NCBI GenBank assembly: GCA_963819815.1
Contig: CAWFXL010000001.1
Location: 544,001 to 608,000, forward strand
Reading direction: 5' to 3'
DNA: 64,000 bases
Source of the DNA: an uncultured bacterium
GTDB taxonomy: Bacteria > Babelota > Babeliae > Babelales > Babelaceae
In this document: piece by piece, positions 56,165 to 62,050 of the stretch
Numbering within the stretch: the stretch's first letter is position 1
How the letters are laid out: each line of letters starts with the position of its first letter
Notes under the pieces: model-generated
What the model was told of the DNA's origin: nothing
The model's input: only the letters and a program-made list of their open reading frames with translations
Databases searched by the model: none
Made by a program: the position numbers and the translations under genes

Positions 56165-57895
56165 ATGGAGCAACGATCTCTCCGTGATGGGGCAAAATAT
56201 ATCTGGCAACTGCCTGAGCAATCATCTCAGGCAGTTCTTGATTTGGCACTTTCATACAATATTTCAGTACCTATTATGCATACTCTGTATTCACGGGGTA
56301 TGACATCAAAAGAAGAGCTCGATCGGTTTCTCTTTAGTACGTCTGAACGTGACGTTACCCATGCCAGCCATTTAAAGGATGCTGAGAAGGCTGTTGAGCG
56401 AATTCTTAAAGCCATACAAAATAAAGAAAAGATTCTCATCTGTGGCGACTATGATGTCGATGGTATTACCTCTTCAGCAATGATGATGACCTGCTTACTC
56501 CCCTTAGGTGCGCAGATCAACTTTTTTTTGCCGCACAGGGTCCATGATGGATACGGACTCTCAGCAAAAACAGTCCAACGGGCTGCACTGAATAACTACA
56601 AAGTACTGGTCACCGTCGATAATGGTATTAGCGCTTTTGAAGCTGCTTTCGAAGCCAAGAGGCTAGGGCTTGATCTGATCATTACCGATCACCATAAACC
56701 GCATGCAGAGCTACCGATTGCACTTGCTATTATTAACCCTCATCAAGACACCTGCCCCTATCCCTACAAAATGTTTGCCGGTGTCGGCGTCATCTTTAAA
56801 ATTATGTCTCTGCTGTATGAGCGCATACAAAAGGAGCTGCCTCCAAAGGTATATGAGCTGCTTACCTTAGGTACCATTGCCGACGTCGTTCCCCTGACGG
56901 GAGAAAATCGCTTTTGGGTACGGCATGGACTGCATCTGGTAAACGCCCATGAAAGCCTTGCAATGCGCGTGCTTAAAAAGAATGCGCGCTTTATTAAACC
57001 TGCAGTATCATCACTTGATATCGGCTTTTCCTTAACACCACAACTCAATGCTCTTGGCCGTCTTGAAGATGCACGTGATGGGGTTGCGTTTCTTATTGGT
57101 CAGGATGAAGCTCGAGTAGAACGGATCGGCACGATATTAAAAGAGCTCAATGAAGCACGGAGATTTATTGAGAAAAAGATATTTCAGGACGTTGATGAAC
57201 AGATTCAGACCAAAAAAATTGATCTTGATAATGAGCGTATTATTATTGCCTCATCTTCACAGTGGCAACCTGGTGTTATTGGCCTTGTTGCCTCTCGCTT
57301 AGTGGGTGCCTATAATAGACCGGCAATATTACTTTCGATCACCAGCCAATCAATAGCAAAAGGATCCTGTAGATCTGTTCCTGGATTTAATATGTTTGAC
57401 GCGCTTTCAGAACATAAAGATCTGCTCACCACATTTGGTGGTCATGCCCAGGCTGCAGGACTTTCCTTACCTCTTGAACGGGTCCCTTTATTAAAAGAAC
57501 GTCTTGAAAAAACGGTACGCGAACGAATACCGACCTTTCAAGCAAAGGCAACCTTAGAGCTCGATGCAGAAGTGCGCCTTGAAGAGGTCAACAAAAAACT
57601 CATAGATGATCTTGCGAACTTAGAACCTTTTGGAAATGGTAATACAGAGCCTAAGTTCTATATAAAAGATGTGAGCCTCATTGAAGCACCAAAGCTCCTT
57701 AAGGATGCCCATACGAAGCTCATGGTATTTAGTCAGGGAACTATTAAACCGGTTATCTTTTTTAATAGGCCCGACGTCTACGAAACTCTTTTAAAAAATG
57801 GCGACCAGTCCTTTTCCCTAGCAGTACAAGCCACTGAGAACCATTTTAATGGACGGGTATCGGTGGAACTTCAGGGCGTGGATATCGCTCTATGA
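56165..57895 (+). CDS. recJ: ssDNA-specific exonuclease RecJ
   Basis: GDYDVDG, DGYG, TVDNG, TDHH, GTIADVVPL, GGHAQAAG. Confidence 0.97.
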   Translation: MEQRSLRDGAKYIWQLPEQSSQAVLDLALSYNISVPIMHTLYSRGMTSKEELDRFLFSTSERDVTHASHLKDAEKAVERILKAIQNKEKILICGDYDVDGITSSAMMMTCLLPLGAQINFFLPHRVHDGYGLSAKTVQRAALNNYKVLVTVDNGISAFEAAFEAKRLGLDLIITDHHKPHAELPIALAIINPHQDTCPYPYKMFAGVGVIFKIMSLLYERIQKELPPKVYELLTLGTIADVVPLTGENRFWVRHGLHLVNAHESLAMRVLKKNARFIKPAVSSLDIGFSLTPQLNALGRLEDARDGVAFLIGQDEARVERIGTILKELNEARRFIEKKIFQDVDEQIQTKKIDLDNERIIIASSSQWQPGVIGLVASRLVGAYNRPAILLSITSQSIAKGSCRSVPGFNMFDALSEHKDLLTTFGGHAQAAGLSLPLERVPLLKERLEKTVRERIPTFQAKATLELDAEVRLEEVNKKLIDDLANLEPFGNGNTEPKFYIKDVSLIEAPKLLKDAHTKLMVFSQGTIKPVIFFNRPDVYETLLKNGDQSFSLAVQATENHFNGRVSVELQGVDIAL

Positions 57896-58575
57896 TAGTT
57901 ACCATCGATGGGCCAACTGCCTCCGGCAAATCTACCGTAGCTCGTGAGCTGGCCAAAAGACTCGGCATTACCTATATAAATTCAGGTCTTTTATTTCGCG
58001 CTTTGGCCTATCTTGCTGAAACAAAGCATCTTACCCTAAATTCAGAGTCACTGAATCATATTCTCACCTTAGGCAAAGAAAGCATCCTCCGTTACTGCTA
58101 TACTCAAGAACAAGGTGCTCAGGTATTTTACCAGGATGAAGATATCACCCCCCTACTTAAGACACCTTCAATGGACCAGCTAGCCTCCAAGATAGCTCTT
58201 GACCCTCAGGTACGAGAAGTCATAGCCCTCTATCAACAAAAGCTAGCTCAGACTCATAGTGTGATTGCTGAAGGTCGGGATTGTGGTACGGTTATATTTC
58301 CCCAAGCTGACTACAAATTCTACATCACCGCAAGTCTTGATGTGCGTGCTCAGCGTTGGCAAAAGGATCAGGAAAAAAAAGGTGCTCACTATACACTCAA
58401 AGAGAGTAAGCATTTCGTTGAAGAACGGGATACAAGAGACTCTGAAAGAAGTCTTGCTCCTCTTGCTATCCCAGTAGGAGCGCAGGTCATAGATACAAGT
58501 ACTATGACTATTGGCCAAGTTATTGACACTTGTTTAGCCTTCATCAAGCAAATGAACGACACCGAACTCGATTAA
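57892..58575 (+). CDS. cmk: Cytidylate kinase
   Basis: IDGPTASGKST, EGRDCGTVIFP, RDTRDSER. Confidence 0.95.
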   Translation: MIVTIDGPTASGKSTVARELAKRLGITYINSGLLFRALAYLAETKHLTLNSESLNHILTLGKESILRYCYTQEQGAQVFYQDEDITPLLKTPSMDQLASKIALDPQVREVIALYQQKLAQTHSVIAEGRDCGTVIFPQADYKFYITASLDVRAQRWQKDQEKKGAHYTLKESKHFVEERDTRDSERSLAPLAIPVGAQVIDTSTMTIGQVIDTCLAFIKQMNDTELD

Positions 58576-58634
58576 CATAAGAACGACTTAGGTTGCTCTT
58601 TTTGCTTTTAATGTCAAAACACCGCCTTTTCCCG

Positions 58635-58779
58635 TGACATGAAATTGCCCTTTTCCCAATTTCATGTCAAATTTTTCATCCACTTATCTTGACATGAAAT
58701 TGGATTTTTCCGAGTTTCACGTCAAACCCATCACCTATTTTTCTTGACGTGAAATTGACTTTTTCCGCATTTCATGTCA
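58635..58779. repeat. Three 35-bp palindromic units at exact 55-bp period
   Basis: Units start at 58635, 58690 and 58745; consensus TGACRTGAAATTG-N9-nnnTTTCAYGTCA; a degenerate extra half-unit ends at 58616. Confidence 0.92.
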
Positions 58780-58783
58780 AACT
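58755..58783 (+). promoter_or_regulatory. Promoter embedded in third palindrome
   Basis: TTGACT(58755-60)-N17-CAAACT(58778-83) with TG at 58775-76. Confidence 0.55.
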
Positions 58784-58811
58784 ATATCTCATAAGAAAGA
58801 AAGGAAATGAT

Positions 58812-60251
58812 ATGTCACTTCCCTTTATTGGACGCAAAAAAGAGCTCGCCACTCTTGAGAAACTCTTAAAAAAGAGTGTTGCAAGCCTGGTAGTTGTCAA
58901 AGGCAGGCGCAGGATAGGGAAAAGCCGCCTCATCCAAGAATTTGCAAAAAAATATACCTTCTACCAATTTAGTGGGCTGCCCCTCACTCCAGAAACTTCT
59001 ATTCAATCTCAGCTAGATGCCTTTGCATTACAGTTAAGCGAACAAACAGGTCTTCCAAAAATTCAGGCCAATGATTGGAGTAAACTTTTTCATTTGCTAG
59101 CGGACAAAATTAAAACAGGAAGAATTATTGTCCTTTTTGATGAAATTTCTTGGATGGGATCAAAAGATCCAGACTTTCTCGGAAAATTTAAAAATGCTTG
59201 GGACATCTATTTCAAGAAGAACAATAAACTCATCTTCTTTCTCTGCGGTTCAGTATCATCATGGATTGATAAAAATATTTTAGCGAGCACAGGGTTCGTA
59301 GGAAGAATTTCCTTTAGACTTACCTTAGATGAACTCCCTTTAAATGAGTGTAACGAATTTTGGACACACAAAGATAGCCTCATTTCACCCTATGAAAAAT
59401 TCAAAATACTTTCTGTTACCGGAGGCATTCCACGCTATCTGGAGGAAATAGATACCTCACTTCCAGGCAATGAAAATATCAAAGATCTGTGCTTCTCACC
59501 AGGAGGTCTTCTTGTACATGAATTTCACGATATATTCTCAGATATATTTGGTCATCGGACTGGAATCTATAAAAGAATTGTTGAAGCTCTCGCAAATGGA
59601 CCCTTAGATGCAAAAAAAATATGTAAGCTCTTAGGAGTCACCTATACAGGAACCCAAAATGAATACTTAGATGATCTTGTCGCGTCTGGTTTTGTAAAGA
59701 GAGACTACACATGGCACTTCTCTACCGGGAAAATCTCGCGATTCAGCCAATTTCGATTAAGCGATAACTACGTACGCTTTTATCTTAAATACATTGATCC
59801 TGTTTTACCAAAAATTGAAAATCATACTTTTGATTTTGCCTCTCTCAGCGCACTTCCCGGATGGGAAACAATTAAAGGCTACCAATTTGAGAATCTCGTT
59901 TTAAAAAACAGGCGCTTCTTGAGAGAGTGTTTACACCTCAACCCTAATGATATTATCGCAGATAATCCCTTTTTCCAGCGAACAAGTGAGGAAGTCCCTG
60001 GTTGTCAAATCGATTACCTTATTCAAACTAAATTTAGAGTACTTTATGTCTGCGAGTTTAAATTTAGTAGTCAACCGGTTGGCACGAGGGTTATACGGGA
60101 AATGCAAGAAAAGATACGGAGACTATCATACCCTAAAGGATTTTCTATTCTGCCAGTTCTCGTACACGTTAACGGCGTCGACGACGAGGTCCTTGGCAGT
60201 GGATTTTTTGCAAACGTTATCGATTTTTCGCAAGCTCTTACCCAGGGTTAG
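58812..60251 (+). CDS. AAA+/STAND-like ATPase (COG1672 type) with probable wHTH and C-terminal PD-(D/E)XK domain
   Basis: FIGRKKEL, Walker A GRRRIGKS, Walker B VLFDE, LCGS, TGGIPRYL, QIDY...VCEFK; ATG 58812 after AAGGA. Confidence 0.88.
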   Translation: MSLPFIGRKKELATLEKLLKKSVASLVVVKGRRRIGKSRLIQEFAKKYTFYQFSGLPLTPETSIQSQLDAFALQLSEQTGLPKIQANDWSKLFHLLADKIKTGRIIVLFDEISWMGSKDPDFLGKFKNAWDIYFKKNNKLIFFLCGSVSSWIDKNILASTGFVGRISFRLTLDELPLNECNEFWTHKDSLISPYEKFKILSVTGGIPRYLEEIDTSLPGNENIKDLCFSPGGLLVHEFHDIFSDIFGHRTGIYKRIVEALANGPLDAKKICKLLGVTYTGTQNEYLDDLVASGFVKRDYTWHFSTGKISRFSQFRLSDNYVRFYLKYIDPVLPKIENHTFDFASLSALPGWETIKGYQFENLVLKNRRFLRECLHLNPNDIIADNPFFQRTSEEVPGCQIDYLIQTKFRVLYVCEFKFSSQPVGTRVIREMQEKIRRLSYPKGFSILPVLVHVNGVDDEVLGSGFFANVIDFSQALTQG

Positions 60252-60544
60252 CATATCTTCGAAAGTATAGAGTTTTTTACTGAGTTCATGAAGAACTACC
60301 AATTATCACTTGCCAATAAGAAAATGCATCACAGGCATAACTACAATAGCCAATCAATAAGTTTGTATTTTTGATTCATGGAAAAGGAAAGAAAACTTAT
60401 ATCAGTTCTTTGAGAACCTTTGATTTCTTCTTCTAGTAGAGTGTTTCTAATCTTTCCCTCAGCCAAGGAAAGATGATCTTCCCACTTTTTTCCTTCCCCG
60501 AGGGAAAGAGGGCTCAATATTTCGCTTACGAGCCTCTCAATCGA

Positions 60545-62050
60545 CTATTTCTTTTTGAGTGTAGGGAAAAGTATCACTTCTTTGATCGAAGTAGTATTGG
60601 TGAGAATCATTGCTAAACGGTCGATCCCAATACCAACACCTGAGGTTGGCGGCAGTCCATACTCTAACGCACGTATAAAATCAGCATCAAATTGATGAGC
60701 CTCCTCATCACCAGCCTCCAAATTTTTGAGCTGATCGATGAAACGCTGCGCCTGATCGAAAGGATCATTTAACTCGTTATAGCTGTTTGCAATCTCCATG
60801 CCCGCAATAAAAAACTCAAACCGGGGAGCTATAGCAGGATTGTTCGGATCTTTTTTTGTCAGCGGCGATACCTCTATCGGGAACCCTACAATGAAGGTAG
60901 GCTGAATCAGCTTACTCTCAACAAGCTCTTCAAACAGCGCATAGACCTTTTCTGCAGGAGAAGCACCCTTTCTCAGCGTGACGCCATAGGTTTTCAATGC
61001 CGTATCAATTGTATCTTCTTGAAGATCGCTTTTGGTAAGTTTCGTATGTTCAATAAGCGCCTCAACCATGGAGCAGCGTTTAAACGGCTTCTCAAAGTCT
61101 ACAACATGCTCACCAAAAGGAGCATGAAGGGTACCACATACTTCTTTAACGACAGAGCGAACAAGCGCTTCTACAAAATTGAGACTATATTGGTAATCTT
61201 GATGAGCTGTATAAAATTCCAACATCGTAAACTCAGGATTATGACGCGTCGAAACACCTTCATTTCTAAAGTTCCGATTAATCTCAAAAACCCGCTCAAA
61301 ACCACCAATAATAAGCCGCTTTAAATACAGTTCAGGAGCTATACGTAAATAGAACTCTGAATGCAAGGCATTATAGTGCGTAACAAAAGGCTTTGCTGCA
61401 GCACCTCCTGCTATCGGATGCAGCATAGGAGTTTCTACTTCTACGTAATCATGAGCTTCAAGGTAGGCTCGCATCGTATGAATAAGTTTACTCCGCTTAA
61501 TAAAACGTTTACGAACCTCTTCGTCCATCAATAAATCTAAATACCGTTGACGGTACTTTGTTTCAATATCTTGTAACCCGTGAAACTTCTCAGGCAGTGG
61601 AAACAGACACTTTGAAAGGAGAACATATTTTTCAACCTTGAGGGTAACTTCACCCATCTTCGTTTTGAATGAGGAACCTTCTACCCACACAATATCCCCA
61701 ACATCAATAAGATGCTCAAAGATATCAAATGCTTCTTCCCCTACTTTATCACTGCGAAGATAGATCTGCAGACGCCCGGTGATATCCTGAATATGAGCAA
61801 ACGCAGTTTTTCCATGAAGACGAACGGTCATAAGTCGCCCTGCAATACTATACCGACGCTCAACCTCATCATCCTTAAATTCACTCAGAACCGTTTCACA
61901 GTGTGCTGTGGTCGGCATCATAGAAGGCCAAGGATCGATCCCTTTTTCACGAAGTTTGCGAACTTTTTCAACACGAACTCGATGCTCTGCCGACTCGTCA
62001 CTCAAGGCACCTTCAAGTTCGTGAAGGAGTCCATCTTTTTTTTCAGCCAT
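60545..62050 (-). CDS. lysS: Lysine--tRNA ligase (class II)
   Basis: YRQRYLDL, LRIAPELYLKRL, FRNEG..HNPEFT, GIGIDRL. Confidence 0.98.
   Translation of the reverse strand: MAEKKDGLLHELEGALSDESAEHRVRVEKVRKLREKGIDPWPSMMPTTAHCETVLSEFKDDEVERRYSIAGRLMTVRLHGKTAFAHIQDITGRLQIYLRSDKVGEEAFDIFEHLIDVGDIVWVEGSSFKTKMGEVTLKVEKYVLLSKCLFPLPEKFHGLQDIETKYRQRYLDLLMDEEVRKRFIKRSKLIHTMRAYLEAHDYVEVETPMLHPIAGGAAAKPFVTHYNALHSEFYLRIAPELYLKRLIIGGFERVFEINRNFRNEGVSTRHNPEFTMLEFYTAHQDYQYSLNFVEALVRSVVKEVCGTLHAPFGEHVVDFEKPFKRCSMVEALIEHTKLTKSDLQEDTIDTALKTYGVTLRKGASPAEKVYALFEELVESKLIQPTFIVGFPIEVSPLTKKDPNNPAIAPRFEFFIAGMEIANSYNELNDPFDQAQRFIDQLKNLEAGDEEAHQFDADFIRALEYGLPPTSGVGIGIDRLAMILTNTTSIKEVILFPTLKKK

What the first reader, a model, noticed from the sequence alone, without database searches (positions are those of the whole stretch)
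58580..58811. Phased array of 35-bp palindromes over the promoter of an ATPase-nuclease gene
Seen: TGACATGAAATTG-cccttttcc-CAATTTCATGTCA (58635-69, a perfect 13-bp inverted repeat), repeated with few changes at 58690-724 and 58745-779. The period is exactly 55 bp with 20-bp linkers, and a decayed fourth unit ends at 58616. Arms are conserved while loops and linkers drift. Unit 3 contains TTGACT-N17-CAAACT just upstream of the RBS. Inference: a multi-operator array on which the wHTH-containing ATPase oligomerises to repress itself, keeping a nuclease silent until triggered. Alternatives are a hairpin-repeat ncRNA (antitoxin or guide-like) or recombination sites for a mobile cassette. This is the strongest non-coding signal in the window.
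Basis: partly seen in the sequence, partly recalled or inferred. Interest (0 to 1): 0.8.

Follow-up and report, generated by a model that had tools for sequence, protein, structure and literature searches.

The report
Private operator array of ATPase-nuclease gene
Three evenly spaced DNA palindromes in front of a candidate phage-defence gene are most likely the sites where the encoded ATP-driven nuclease binds to control its own production, and relatives of this gene in many other microbes carry their own private version of the same 55-base-spaced layout.

Summary
There are three 35-bp palindromes at 58635, 58690 and 58745, exactly 55 bp apart, plus one decayed half-site. In this 1.64-Mb genome the palindrome pattern was found only at this locus. 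They sit directly upstream of a 479-aa gene of the PADLOC candidate family PDC-S27, whose predicted parts are an AAA+/STAND-like ATPase, a winged helix and a PD-(D/E)xK nuclease.

All 11 paralogs in this genome show palindromic or repeated words just upstream, each with different letters. By one fixed statistic, 37 of 51 relatives and 41 of 76 independent metagenome relatives have at least two like palindromes upstream. Downstream the counts are 2 of 51 and 2 of 59, and 17 of 809 for other genes of this genome.

The arm sequences differ between genes, but the repeat period is conserved at 54-55 bp. Predicted promoters overlap the gene-proximal half-site. Arm mismatches show no RNA-wobble bias.

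Best reading (0.65): these are private operators bound cooperatively by the gene's own product, giving autoregulation. Binding, the sign of regulation and the trigger are all inferred. Co-variation with the recognition helix specifically was inconclusive.

Earlier notes of this scan report the same layout in chlamydial genomes. My literature searches found no paper describing it.

The parts
58607..58617 (.). Lone decayed half-site (TTTAATGTCAA, right-arm type), remnant of a fourth unit
   Evidence: I16: 91% complementary to 58689-58699. One search places it 53 bp upstream of the next like half-site.
58635..58669 (.). Palindrome unit 1: arms 58635-58647 and 58657-58669 (13/13 complementary), centre CCCTTTTCC
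   Evidence: (I6, D1)
58670..58689 (.). Linker 1 (20 nt, T-rich start AATTTTTCAT)
   Evidence: 12 of 20 positions match linker 2.
58690..58724 (.). Palindrome unit 2: left arm TGACATGAAATTG, right arm GAGTTTCACGTCA (10 of 13 positions Watson-Crick complementary, 11 of 13 if the one G-T pair is counted), centre GATTTTTCC
   Evidence: D1: 75% identical to unit 1 over 55 nt
58725..58744 (.). Linker 2 (20 nt)
58745..58779 (.). Palindrome unit 3 (promoter-proximal): left arm TGACGTGAAATTG, right arm GCATTTCATGTCA, centre ACTTTTTCC
58755..58783 (+). Putative promoter inside unit 3: -35 TTGACT (58755-58760), 17-nt spacer ending TGT, weak -10 CAAACT (58778-58783)
   Evidence: Read. Not flagged by the consensus scan. 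In relatives the equivalent promoter overlaps the proximal half-site.
58801..58805 (+). Ribosome-binding site AAGGA, 6 nt before the ATG
58812..60251 (+). Gene for the 479-aa PDC-S27-type ATPase-nuclease (P0001), stop codon included
   Evidence: PF01637 E=3.6e-15; PDC-S27 E=4e-83
58812..59456 (+). AAA+/STAND-like ATPase domain (residues 1-215; Walker A GRRRIGKS, Walker B D110 E111)
   Evidence: 2qen Z 21.6, 2fna Z 21.0
59550..59762 (+). Winged helix-turn-helix (residues 247-317; helices 267-274 and 280-291, beta-hairpin wing 295-316)
   Evidence: pLDDT about 90 or above. (profile positions 259-317 match chain 3l7w, E=0.0074). (sub-threshold MarR_2, HTH_5 and HTH_45 hits). (Orc1/Cdc6-DNA 2qby_B, Z 14.1 over residues 1-334).
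59862..60248 (+). PD-(D/E)xK (restriction-endonuclease-fold) domain (residues 351-479; invariant D401, E415, K417)
   Evidence: invariant columns; pLDDT 90.5; 1y88 Z 9.2, NucS 2vld Z 9.1, Can2 Z 8.0, McrC Z 7.7

Best explanation
The array is a private set of operators for the gene that follows it.

Proposed mechanism. The 479-aa product is a STAND/ORC-like AAA+ ATPase with a winged helix and a C-terminal PD-(D/E)xK nuclease. I propose it recognises the TGACRTGAAAT half-sites through its winged-helix region, with two subunits per palindrome. Palindromes recur every 55 bp (about five helical turns), which puts successive dimers on roughly the same face of the DNA, so the ATPase domains could link them cooperatively. 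The gene-proximal palindrome contains the -35 hexamer and covers the promoter spacer, so occupancy would shut the promoter (negative autoregulation) and keep the nuclease scarce. Each paralogue has its own half-site letters, so the 11 copies in this genome would not cross-regulate.

Shown here: the anatomy of the array, its uniqueness in the genome, the family-wide link between gene and array, the conserved 54-55-bp period, the predicted promoter overlap in relatives, and the predicted domain architecture.

Inferred: binding by the gene's own product, the stoichiometry, cooperativity, repression rather than activation, and any trigger.
For: 1. Anatomy and uniqueness.

2. All paralogues. All 11 PF01637 genes of the genome show palindromic or repeated words in the 350 bp upstream, each with different letters. 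They lie upstream, not downstream. By the fixed statistic 7 of the 11 have two or more like palindromes.

3. Fixed statistic: at least 2 inverted pairs of one 9-mer, up to 1 mismatch, within 350 bp.
- Genus and other-phylum relatives: upstream 37 of 51, downstream 2 of 51.
- Independent metagenome relatives at 26-58% identity: upstream 41 of 76, downstream 2 of 59, shuffled upstream 0 of 76.
- Other ORFs of at least 250 aa in this genome: 17 of 809. One of these 17 is this gene under another start, and several others are other ATPase-wHTH families.

4. Unbiased genome scan. In the strict scan, 3 of 4 arrays lie upstream of paralogues.

5. Period. 85 of 125 same-orientation neighbour distances fall in 48-58 bp, with modes at 54 (25) and 55 (24). 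In the metagenome set alone, 38 of 55 fall in 50-57 bp. The arm letters are unrelated between genes, so the spacing looks like a geometric constraint.

6. Only candidate binder. Because each array has its own letters, its reader should be specific to that gene. In the window locus the flanking genes are housekeeping (cmk, lysS), so the adjacent gene's own product is the obvious candidate.

7. Promoters. Promoter-like sites were found in 50 of 78 array loci. A half-site overlaps the -35 to -10 stretch in 31 of these 50. On average 77% of half-sites lie upstream of the predicted transcription start.

8. No RNA-type bias. Units 2 and 3 pair an A-type with a G-type half-site, which breaks Watson-Crick pairing. 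Over 173 palindromes, arm mismatches are G.T 32, A.C 35 and other 68, so there is no wobble bias.

9. Protein. AF2 pLDDT is 93.3. The fold resembles Orc1/Cdc6 bound to origin DNA and NB-ARC STAND proteins.

10. Sharing of half-sites. Proteins at 70% identity or more mostly share half-sites (5 of the 6 such pairs score 8 or more; L048/L050 at 71% score 5); more distant ones mostly do not.

11. Precedent. The AbiEi antitoxin autoregulates through inverted repeats in its promoter (PMC7319586, start of the abstract seen in the search listing).
Against: - There are no binding or expression data of any kind.
- The window's own promoter call is weak and was not flagged by the scan tool.
- 14 of 51 and 35 of 76 relatives fall below the statistic, so either the layout is not universal or the statistic misses degenerate arrays.
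- The partial Mantel test gave no signal for the recognition helix, residues 278-293 (239 of 300 permutations reached the observed value). It gave only weak signals for residues 247-277 (4 of 300) and for the nuclease domain (5 of 300).
- Relatives are not independent, so all counts overstate the support.
- The strictly asymmetric, conserved centre TTTTCC, shared with paralogue C1:219711 and with L023, is not what a symmetric dimer site requires.
- 4 of 70 array loci repeat the same palindromes downstream of the gene in direct orientation, which plain promoter control does not explain.
Confidence: 0.65

Rival explanations
1. Assembly or anchoring platform rather than, or in addition to, a transcriptional operator. 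The phased sites would load an ORC/STAND-like oligomer onto its own locus. The purpose would be to hold the nuclease inactive in cis, to mark self DNA, or to act as an iteron- or centromere-like site.
For: - The fold is closest, after its own family, to NB-ARC STAND proteins and to Orc1/Cdc6 bound to origin DNA.
- The 54-55-bp phasing is conserved even for units far upstream of the promoter.
- Arrays carry 4 to 12 half-sites, more than a simple repressor needs.
- 4 of 70 loci also have the sites downstream of the gene.
- One PDC-S27 representative gave no protection against T4, T5 or T7 in E. coli B (PMC12881386, passages read), so the family's defence role is open.
Against: - The array always abuts or overlaps the gene's own promoter, and its last half-site ends 2-98 bp before the start codon. 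This is what autoregulation predicts and what an anchoring site does not need.
- 11 copies per genome, each with different letters, argues against a replication origin.
- This reading is not exclusive of autoregulation.
Confidence: 0.12
2. Recombination sites or ends of a mobile single-gene cassette. The palindromes would be recognised, perhaps cut, for excision and integration.
For: - The gene is accessory cargo. recJ-cmk is conserved in 7 relatives' loci, and in two of them (L074, L078) lysS follows cmk with other small genes in the gap and no ATPase.
- Close homologues occur in Parachlamydiaceae, Gammaproteobacteria and Marinamargulisbacteria MAGs.
- L023, L044, L046 and L149 carry the same palindromes on both sides of the gene in direct orientation.
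Against: - 66 of 70 array loci have the palindromes on one side only.
- There is no target duplication or scar at this locus.
- Copies within a genome are old and divergent, at 25-64% identity with unrelated arms, not recent transposition products.
- No recombinase is encoded.
Confidence: 0.08
3. Structured RNA: the hairpins act in a transcript, as a 5' leader, an antitoxin-like RNA or a guide-like small RNA.
For: The region folds far better than shuffles as RNA (z = -5.63). This is trivially expected for palindromes.
Against: - Most half-sites lie upstream of the predicted promoters in relatives (77%).
- Arm mismatches show no G.U bias on either strand (32 against 35).
- Units 2 and 3 combine A-type and G-type half-sites in a way that breaks pairing.
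- No Rfam family reaches threshold: the only hit is a plant miRNA model at 25.2 bits against a gathering score of 62.
Confidence: 0.05
4. Operators for another, unlinked regulator, or a generic hairpin element such as the cmk terminator, unrelated to the ATPase.
For: Unit 1 is followed by TTTTT two bases after the stem and lies 60 bp after the cmk stop.
Against: - The layout travels with the ATPase gene across phyla and genomic contexts.
- Each paralogue would need its own unlinked regulator.
- The motif occurs nowhere else in the genome.
- No + strand terminator was flagged, and units 2 and 3 lack a T-run.
Confidence: 0.05

Closest known systems
PDC-S27 (PADLOC 'phage defence candidate'; COG1672-type 'archaeal ATPase' fused to a PD-(D/E)xK domain)
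   Same: The gene matches the PDC-S27 profile at E=4e-83 over nearly its full length. The literature describes the family as an ATPase fused to a PD-(D/E)xK domain (PMC12988326, passages read).
   Different: The passages and listings I saw say nothing about upstream palindrome arrays or self-regulation. Defence activity is unproven: one representative was not among the four protective candidates in E. coli B (PMC12881386, passages read).
AbiEi antitoxin of type IV AbiE toxin-antitoxin systems (winged-helix autoregulator)
   Same: A winged-helix protein of a defence or toxin module binds inverted repeats in its own promoter cooperatively and represses it (PMC7319586, start of the abstract as shown in the search listing). 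This genome has an AbiEii gene with its own pair of palindromes upstream of the preceding small gene.
   Different: In AbiE the regulator and the toxin are separate proteins. Here the DNA-binding, ATPase and nuclease parts are in one chain, there are 2-4 or more palindromes, and the period is fixed at 54-55 bp.
Controller (C) protein operators (C-boxes) of restriction-modification systems
   Same: Tandem palindromic sites overlap the promoter of the regulator's own gene and time or limit nuclease expression.
   Different: C proteins are small HTH dimers with two adjacent operators within about 35 bp. They have no ATPase, no 55-bp phasing, and the nuclease is a separate gene.
Archaeal Orc1/Cdc6 initiators and their origin recognition boxes
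   Same: Both have the AAA+, lid and winged-helix architecture (2qby_B Z 14.1, rmsd 9.0, 298 residues aligned). In both, repeated inverted recognition elements lie next to the protein's own gene (the latter is recalled knowledge).
   Different: This genome has 11 copies, each with private sites, and the protein carries a nuclease domain. There is no evidence of origin function, and the sites overlap the promoter.
STAND transcription factors such as MalT
   Same: A STAND-type ATPase whose oligomerisation drives cooperative binding to arrays of short sites (recalled). MalT appears among the fold matches (8bob_D, Z 11.6).
   Different: MalT is an activator with a LuxR-type DNA-binding domain acting on other operons. 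Here the sites are private to the gene itself and the protein carries a nuclease.

Membership tests
PDC-S27 (PADLOC candidate defence family) | Full-length match to the family profile | tested here: met
   PDLC04984 E=4e-83, residues 4-438 against profile positions 3-434 of 474
PDC-S27 (PADLOC candidate defence family) | N-terminal ATPase_2/AAA+ domain with Walker A and Walker B motifs | tested here: met
   PF01637 E=3.6e-15 (56.8 bits, cut-off 33.2); invariant G36 K37 and D110 E111; 2qen Z 21.6.
PD-(D/E)xK nuclease superfamily (C-terminal domain) | Conserved D...E-x-K triad on a restriction-endonuclease-like alpha/beta core | tested here: met
   D401, E415 and K417 are invariant in 40 of 40 sequences; the domain model (pLDDT 90.5) matches 1y88 (Z 9.2, rmsd 3.0, 110 aligned), NucS 2vld (Z 9.1), Can2 (Z 8.0) and McrC (Z 7.7). 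Z values are moderate, but the list is almost entirely this fold.
PDC-S27 (PADLOC candidate defence family) | Protection against phage | not testable with these tools
   In the literature, one representative was tested against T4, T5 and T7 in E. coli B and was not among the four protective candidates (PMC12881386, passages read).
Pfam DUF234 (PF03008) | Match to the Pfam model | tested here: not met
   No hit at E<=0.001 on the whole protein and none at E<=10 on residues 240-479.
Self-repressing operator arrays (AbiEi / C-protein type) | Repeated palindromic sites in the regulator's own upstream region | tested here: met
Self-repressing operator arrays (AbiEi / C-protein type) | A site overlaps the core promoter | tested here: inconclusive
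   In the window, only a weak TTGACT-N17-CAAACT lies inside unit 3, and the scan tool did not flag it. In relatives, a half-site overlaps the -35 to -10 stretch in 31 of 50 predicted promoters.
Self-repressing operator arrays (AbiEi / C-protein type) | The product has a DNA-binding domain | tested here: met
   A winged helix at residues 247-317 in a model of pLDDT 93.3, supported (sub-threshold).
Self-repressing operator arrays (AbiEi / C-protein type) | The product binds the sites and lowers its own transcription | not testable with these tools
   Needs EMSA or footprinting and reporter assays.
Self-repressing operator arrays (AbiEi / C-protein type) | Site letters co-vary with the DNA-reading part of the protein | tested here: inconclusive
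   pairs at 70% identity or more mostly share half-sites (one exception, L048/L050); no partial signal for helix 278-293 (239 of 300 permutations reached it), weak signal for 247-277 (4 of 300) and for the nuclease domain (5 of 300).
CRISPR array | Identical repeats separated by unique spacers of similar or greater length, with cas genes nearby | tested here: not met
   There are three imperfect repeats with 20-nt linkers that are 60% alike. The neighbours are recJ, cmk and lysS.
Dispersed REP/MITE-like hairpin repeat | Many copies scattered over the genome | tested here: not met
   the palindrome pattern and the exact 11-mer occur only at this locus.
Known RNA families (Rfam 15) | Match at the gathering score | tested here: not met
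   the only hit is MIR1886 at 25.2 bits against a gathering score of 62.
Archaeal-type replication origin (Orc1/Cdc6 plus ORB) | AAA+ and winged-helix initiator fold next to repeated recognition boxes | tested here: met
   (2qby_B Z 14.1). This is a resemblance only.
Archaeal-type replication origin (Orc1/Cdc6 plus ORB) | Origin activity (unwinding element, replication start) | not testable with these tools
   11 private copies per genome make this unlikely.

The most novel reading that the evidence does not exclude
The array is more than a promoter switch. In this reading it is a cis-acting assembly platform on which a STAND/ORC-like ATPase-nuclease polymerises at a fixed 54-55-bp register, and the private DNA itself acts as the 'antidote' that keeps the nuclease locked. 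Loss, titration or remodelling of the array would then release an active nuclease. Possible causes are deletion of the locus, competition from invading DNA, or replication or supercoiling stress during infection. Each gene-plus-array would thus be a one-gene, self-addictive or self-sensing module, and its letters would diversify to avoid cross-talk between the many copies per genome.
Probability: 0.1. Interest if true: 0.85.

Novelty: new variant of a known kind. Interest (0 to 1): 0.6.

Why it matters
PDC-S27 is reported as one of the most common candidate defence families. One survey counted 3503 systems in Archaea and 4562 in Bacteria (PMC12988326, passage read). Another found it in 71.2% of Halobacteria genomes (bioRxiv 10.1101/2025.11.08.687337, passage read). 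Its function is nevertheless untested or negative so far.

A gene-private operator array with an invariant 54-55-bp register gives three things.

1. A direct biochemical handle on what the winged helix reads and how the ATPase oligomerises.
2. A practical warning. Cloning such genes without their native upstream array, or with it in a foreign host, may explain negative defence assays.
3. A natural set of dozens of apparently orthogonal protein/operator pairs. There are 11 in this one 1.6-Mb genome, which could be used to study how DNA-binding specificity diversifies.

The AAA_14/DUF4143 family in the same genome shows arrays with a different characteristic period of 32-33 bp. This suggests the principle extends to other ATPase-nuclease candidates.

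Tried and rejected
- Homodimer prediction. Two copies of the full protein with alignment A1 returned no verdict (score 0.00). I draw no conclusion from it.
- Sequencing runs. No RNA holder is listed. One soil DNA run held a small share of the words. I did not lay it, and it says nothing about expression.
- Rfam. Only a sub-threshold plant miRNA model matched. Rejected as chance.
- CRISPR-like reading. Rejected: the linkers are 20 nt and alike, there are only three copies, and no cas genes are nearby.
- Dispersed-repeat reading. Rejected.
- Insertion scar or target duplication of the cmk or lysS 3' ends around the cassette. None was found (only 8-14-nt chance matches).
- Promoter scan of the window. 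No site reached the tool's threshold.
- Identity-based co-variation test aimed at the recognition helix. No signal.
- My first two genome-wide palindrome-array scans were too strict to recover the window's own array, because units 2 and 3 are imperfect. I replaced them with the 9-mer, up-to-1-mismatch statistic.
- Single half-site 10-11-mers of several paralogues occur by chance elsewhere in the genome, so 'private' holds for the paired and phased sites, not for isolated words.
- Rows dropped before counting. L028 and L038: my Walker-A pattern found no ORF. L017, L020, L021 and L029: truncated or fragmentary, not entered. L095 and L124: no start or no ORF. Loci with less than 300 bp of flank were left out of the relevant count.
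- Literature. Searches found no paper describing palindrome arrays upstream of PDC-S27/COG1672 genes. Subscription journals and bioRxiv supplements were not searchable.
Full report
**1. The observation**

The intergenic stretch between cmk (57892-58575; PF02224) and the next gene holds three 55-nt units starting at 58635, 58690 and 58745 (family D1). Each unit begins with a 35-bp palindrome. Unit 1 has perfect 13-bp arms around a 9-nt centre (I6).

Read as half-sites, the six arms are TGACATGAAAT (four) and TGACGTGAAAT/C (two). A seventh, decayed half-site (TTTAATGTCAA, 58607-58617) lies 53 bp before the next like half-site. It has no recognisable partner arm.

The linkers drift: 12 of 20 positions are alike.

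The palindrome pattern occurs only here in the 1.64-Mb genome, and the exact 11-mer occurs four times, all at this locus. A block-shuffled contig gave no arrays of like palindromes.

They are too weak for the tool's promoter scan to flag.

**2. The gene**

The gene at 58812-60251 encodes 479 aa. Its features are as follows.

- It matches Pfam ATPase_2 (E=3.6e-15) and the PADLOC candidate family PDC-S27 (E=4e-83). It does not match Pfam DUF234.
- An AlphaFold2 model built on 40 relatives has pLDDT 93.3.
- Residues 1-327 superpose on the archaeal Walker-type ATPases 2qen (Z 21.6) and 2fna (Z 21.0). The next best matches are plant NB-ARC STAND modules (Z 16.5) and Orc1/Cdc6 bound to origin DNA (Z 14.1).
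- Residues 247-317 form a winged helix. Supporting hits are a profile match to chain 3l7w (E=0.0074) and sub-threshold MarR/ArsR-type Pfam hits.
- The C-terminal 130 residues carry D401, E415 and K417, invariant in 40 of 40 sequences. Modelled alone (pLDDT 90.5), the domain matches almost only restriction-endonuclease-fold proteins: 1y88 Z 9.2, NucS Z 9.1, Can2 Z 8.0, McrC Z 7.7.

'ATPase-nuclease with a wHTH' is therefore a fair description.

**3. The decisive comparison**

The genome holds 11 genes above the PF01637 cut-off. When I printed the 350 bp upstream of each, all 11 showed palindromic or repeated words of their own, with letters unrelated to the window's. These lie upstream and not downstream. 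By the fixed statistic below, 7 of the 11 have two or more like palindromes.

The same holds for relatives in other species of the genus. It also holds for 50-66% identical homologues in Parachlamydiaceae, Gammaproteobacteria and Marinamargulisbacteria MAGs.

I used one fixed statistic: at least two inverted pairs of one 9-mer, up to 1 mismatch, gap 0-35, within 350 bp.

| Set | Upstream | Downstream | Other control |
|---|---|---|---|
| Genus and other-phylum relatives | 37 of 51 | 2 of 51 | |
| Independent metagenome relatives (80 loci, 26-58% identity) | 41 of 76 | 2 of 59 | shuffled upstream 0 of 76 |
| Other ORFs of at least 250 aa in this genome | 17 of 809 | | |

The 17 hits among other ORFs break down as follows (Pfam names).

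- One is the window gene under an alternative start.
- Two are divergent neighbours that share an ATPase's array.
- Four are AAA_14/DUF4143 ATPases.
- One is an SLFN_AlbA_2 protein and one a Fic protein.
- Three lie in a foreign-looking 65%-GC block.

A strict, unbiased genome scan found 4 arrays, 3 of them upstream of paralogues. Relatives are not independent, so these counts overstate the statistical weight. The direction is nevertheless unambiguous.

**4. A conserved register**

The arms differ between genes, but the distance between successive like-oriented half-sites does not. Of 125 such distances, 85 fall in 48-58 bp, with 25 at 54 and 24 at 55. In the metagenome sample alone, 38 of 55 fall in 50-57 bp.

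In the window, half-site centres are 22 and 33 bp apart in alternation (read). That is two and three turns of about 11 bp, so all six sites face roughly one side of the helix. This last point is my inference.

The AAA_14/DUF4143 genes of the same genome have arrays with a different period. A 32-33-bp distance appears in 9 of 20 upstream regions. This again points to protein geometry.

**5. DNA site or RNA hairpin?**

Three lines favour a DNA site.

- Among 78 array loci, 50 have a promoter-like site within the last 200 bp. A half-site overlaps the -35 to -10 stretch in 31 of those 50. On average 77% of half-sites lie upstream of the predicted start. Several paralogues have consensus-grade promoters at the 3' edge of, or inside, the last palindrome: TTGACT-N17-TATAAT at C1:1505856 and TTGACA-N17-TATAAT at C1:1013307 (read).
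- In units 2 and 3 of the window an A-type half-site faces a G-type one, which breaks pairing.
- Over 173 palindromes, arm mismatches are G.T 32, A.C 35 and other 68. There is no excess of RNA-tolerated wobble on either strand.

Rfam gave nothing above threshold. The strong RNA fold z-score is what any palindrome gives.

**6. Who binds?**

Each array has private letters, so its reader should be gene-specific. In the window locus the flanking genes are housekeeping (cmk, lysS), which leaves the adjacent gene's own product as the obvious candidate.

Proteins at 70% identity or more mostly share half-sites (L014/L015, L046/L058, G000:77054/L051). Of the 6 such pairs, 5 score 8 or more and one (L048/L050, 71%) scores 5. 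More distant proteins mostly do not share them.

I also ran a partial Mantel test asking which segment predicts half-site similarity beyond overall relatedness.

| Segment | Permutations reaching the observed value |
|---|---|
| Recognition helix 278-293 | 239 of 300 (no signal) |
| Residues 247-277, the most variable stretch | 4 of 300 (weak signal) |
| Nuclease domain | 5 of 300 (weak signal) |

So which part of the protein reads the DNA remains open.

**7. Context**

recJ-cmk is conserved in 7 relatives' loci. In two of them lysS follows cmk, with other small cargo genes in a gap of about 500 bp and no ATPase. By recalled motifs those cargo genes look MerR-like and nucleotidyltransferase-like; I did not test them against Pfam. 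The cassette is therefore accessory cargo in a variable spot. I found no duplication scar around it.

In 4 of 70 array loci (L023, L044, L046, L149) the same palindromes recur just downstream of the gene in direct orientation. Simple promoter control does not explain this. It keeps a looping, anchoring or recombination reading alive.

**8. Comparison with what is known**

The closest functional analogues are self-repressing winged-helix or HTH regulators of toxin and nuclease modules.

- AbiEi binds inverted repeats in its own promoter (PMC7319586, start of the abstract in the listing).

The closest structural analogues are Orc1/Cdc6 and STAND proteins.

What is different here is threefold: the ATPase, the DNA reader and the nuclease are fused in one chain; there are 4 to 12 half-sites per array; and the 54-55-bp register is invariant.

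PDC-S27 is described in print as an unvalidated candidate with an ATPase fused to a PD-(D/E)xK domain (PMC12988326 and bioRxiv 10.1101/2025.11.08.687337, passages read). One representative did not protect E. coli B against T4, T5 or T7 (PMC12881386, passages read). Five searches found no paper on upstream arrays.

Earlier AI notes of this scan report the same layout in chlamydial genomes (e1-3565876, e1-1471602). I reached the reading independently on this genome and treat those notes as leads, not as support.

**9. Verdict**

I rate the private-operator (autoregulation) reading at 0.65. It is a new variant of a known kind, and I score interest at 0.6.

The boldest reading the data allow is that the array is a cis-acting platform that holds the nuclease locked. 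I give that about 0.1.

I did not check it.

Noticed in passing
G000:C1:1-52000 (outside the window): The first roughly 52 kb of contig C1 has 59-67% GC, against a genome median of 42% (13 of 401 4-kb windows exceed 55%, and all 13 are here). This looks like a chimeric join, a contaminant or a large foreign block. Its GC-rich ORFs produced 3 of the false-positive 'arrays'.
   Followed up: partly
Their period is 32-33 bp, seen in 9 of 20 upstream regions, and some arrays are direct rather than inverted repeats.
   Followed up: partly
G000:C1:1018364-1018585; 285984-286117; 110375-110521: Pairs of long private palindromes also lie near other defence- or toxin-type genes. One pair is upstream of an SLFN_AlbA_2/HATPase_c_4 gene. 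One is upstream of a Fic gene. One is upstream of a 198-aa gene with no Pfam hit that precedes an AbiEii toxin gene.
   Followed up: partly
G000:C1:1418421-1418522 and 1580705-1580800: Two further arrays of like palindromes have no identified partner regulator. The second lies between a lepA-like GTPase gene and a glyoxalase-family gene. The lepA name is recalled from the N-terminal motif only.
   Followed up: no
L023 (downstream of the gene), L044, L046, L149: In 4 of 70 array loci the gene is bracketed: the same palindromes recur within 500 bp downstream, and in the three I read (L023, L044, L046) they are in direct orientation. In L023 what follows the downstream array looks, from reading the sequence, like a convergent housekeeping gene, so that array would not be another promoter.
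   Followed up: partly
window 58575-60545, compared with L074:2150-2740 and L078:1950-2480: The cmk-lysS gap is a variable cargo spot. Two relatives carry a small MerR-like gene and a nucleotidyltransferase-like gene there instead of the ATPase. Both names come from recalled motifs and were not tested against Pfam.
   Followed up: partly
window 58648-58656, 58703-58711, 58758-58766; also G000:C1:221135 upstream and L023: The palindrome centres keep an asymmetric TTTTCC core on the coding strand. The core is shared with the 64-65% identical paralogue and with a Parachlamydiaceae homologue whose outer arms differ. Family-wide, the spacers are only mildly T-biased (T 0.37 against A 0.32). This is unexplained. 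It may be the -35 TTGACT plus an A-tract bend.
   Followed up: partly
window 58800-58825: An 11-pair hairpin spans the ribosome-binding site and start codon. The tool flagged it as terminator-like on the minus strand. On the mRNA strand two of its pairs would be A.C mismatches. The start region also contains ATGTCA, a partial half-site that is out of register with the array.
   Followed up: no
G000:C1:608187-609467 (187 bp beyond the window's end): Another PDC-S27 paralogue, on the minus strand, lies about 4 kb from this one. It has its own CCGCTGG/CCAGCGG palindromes upstream.
   Followed up: partly
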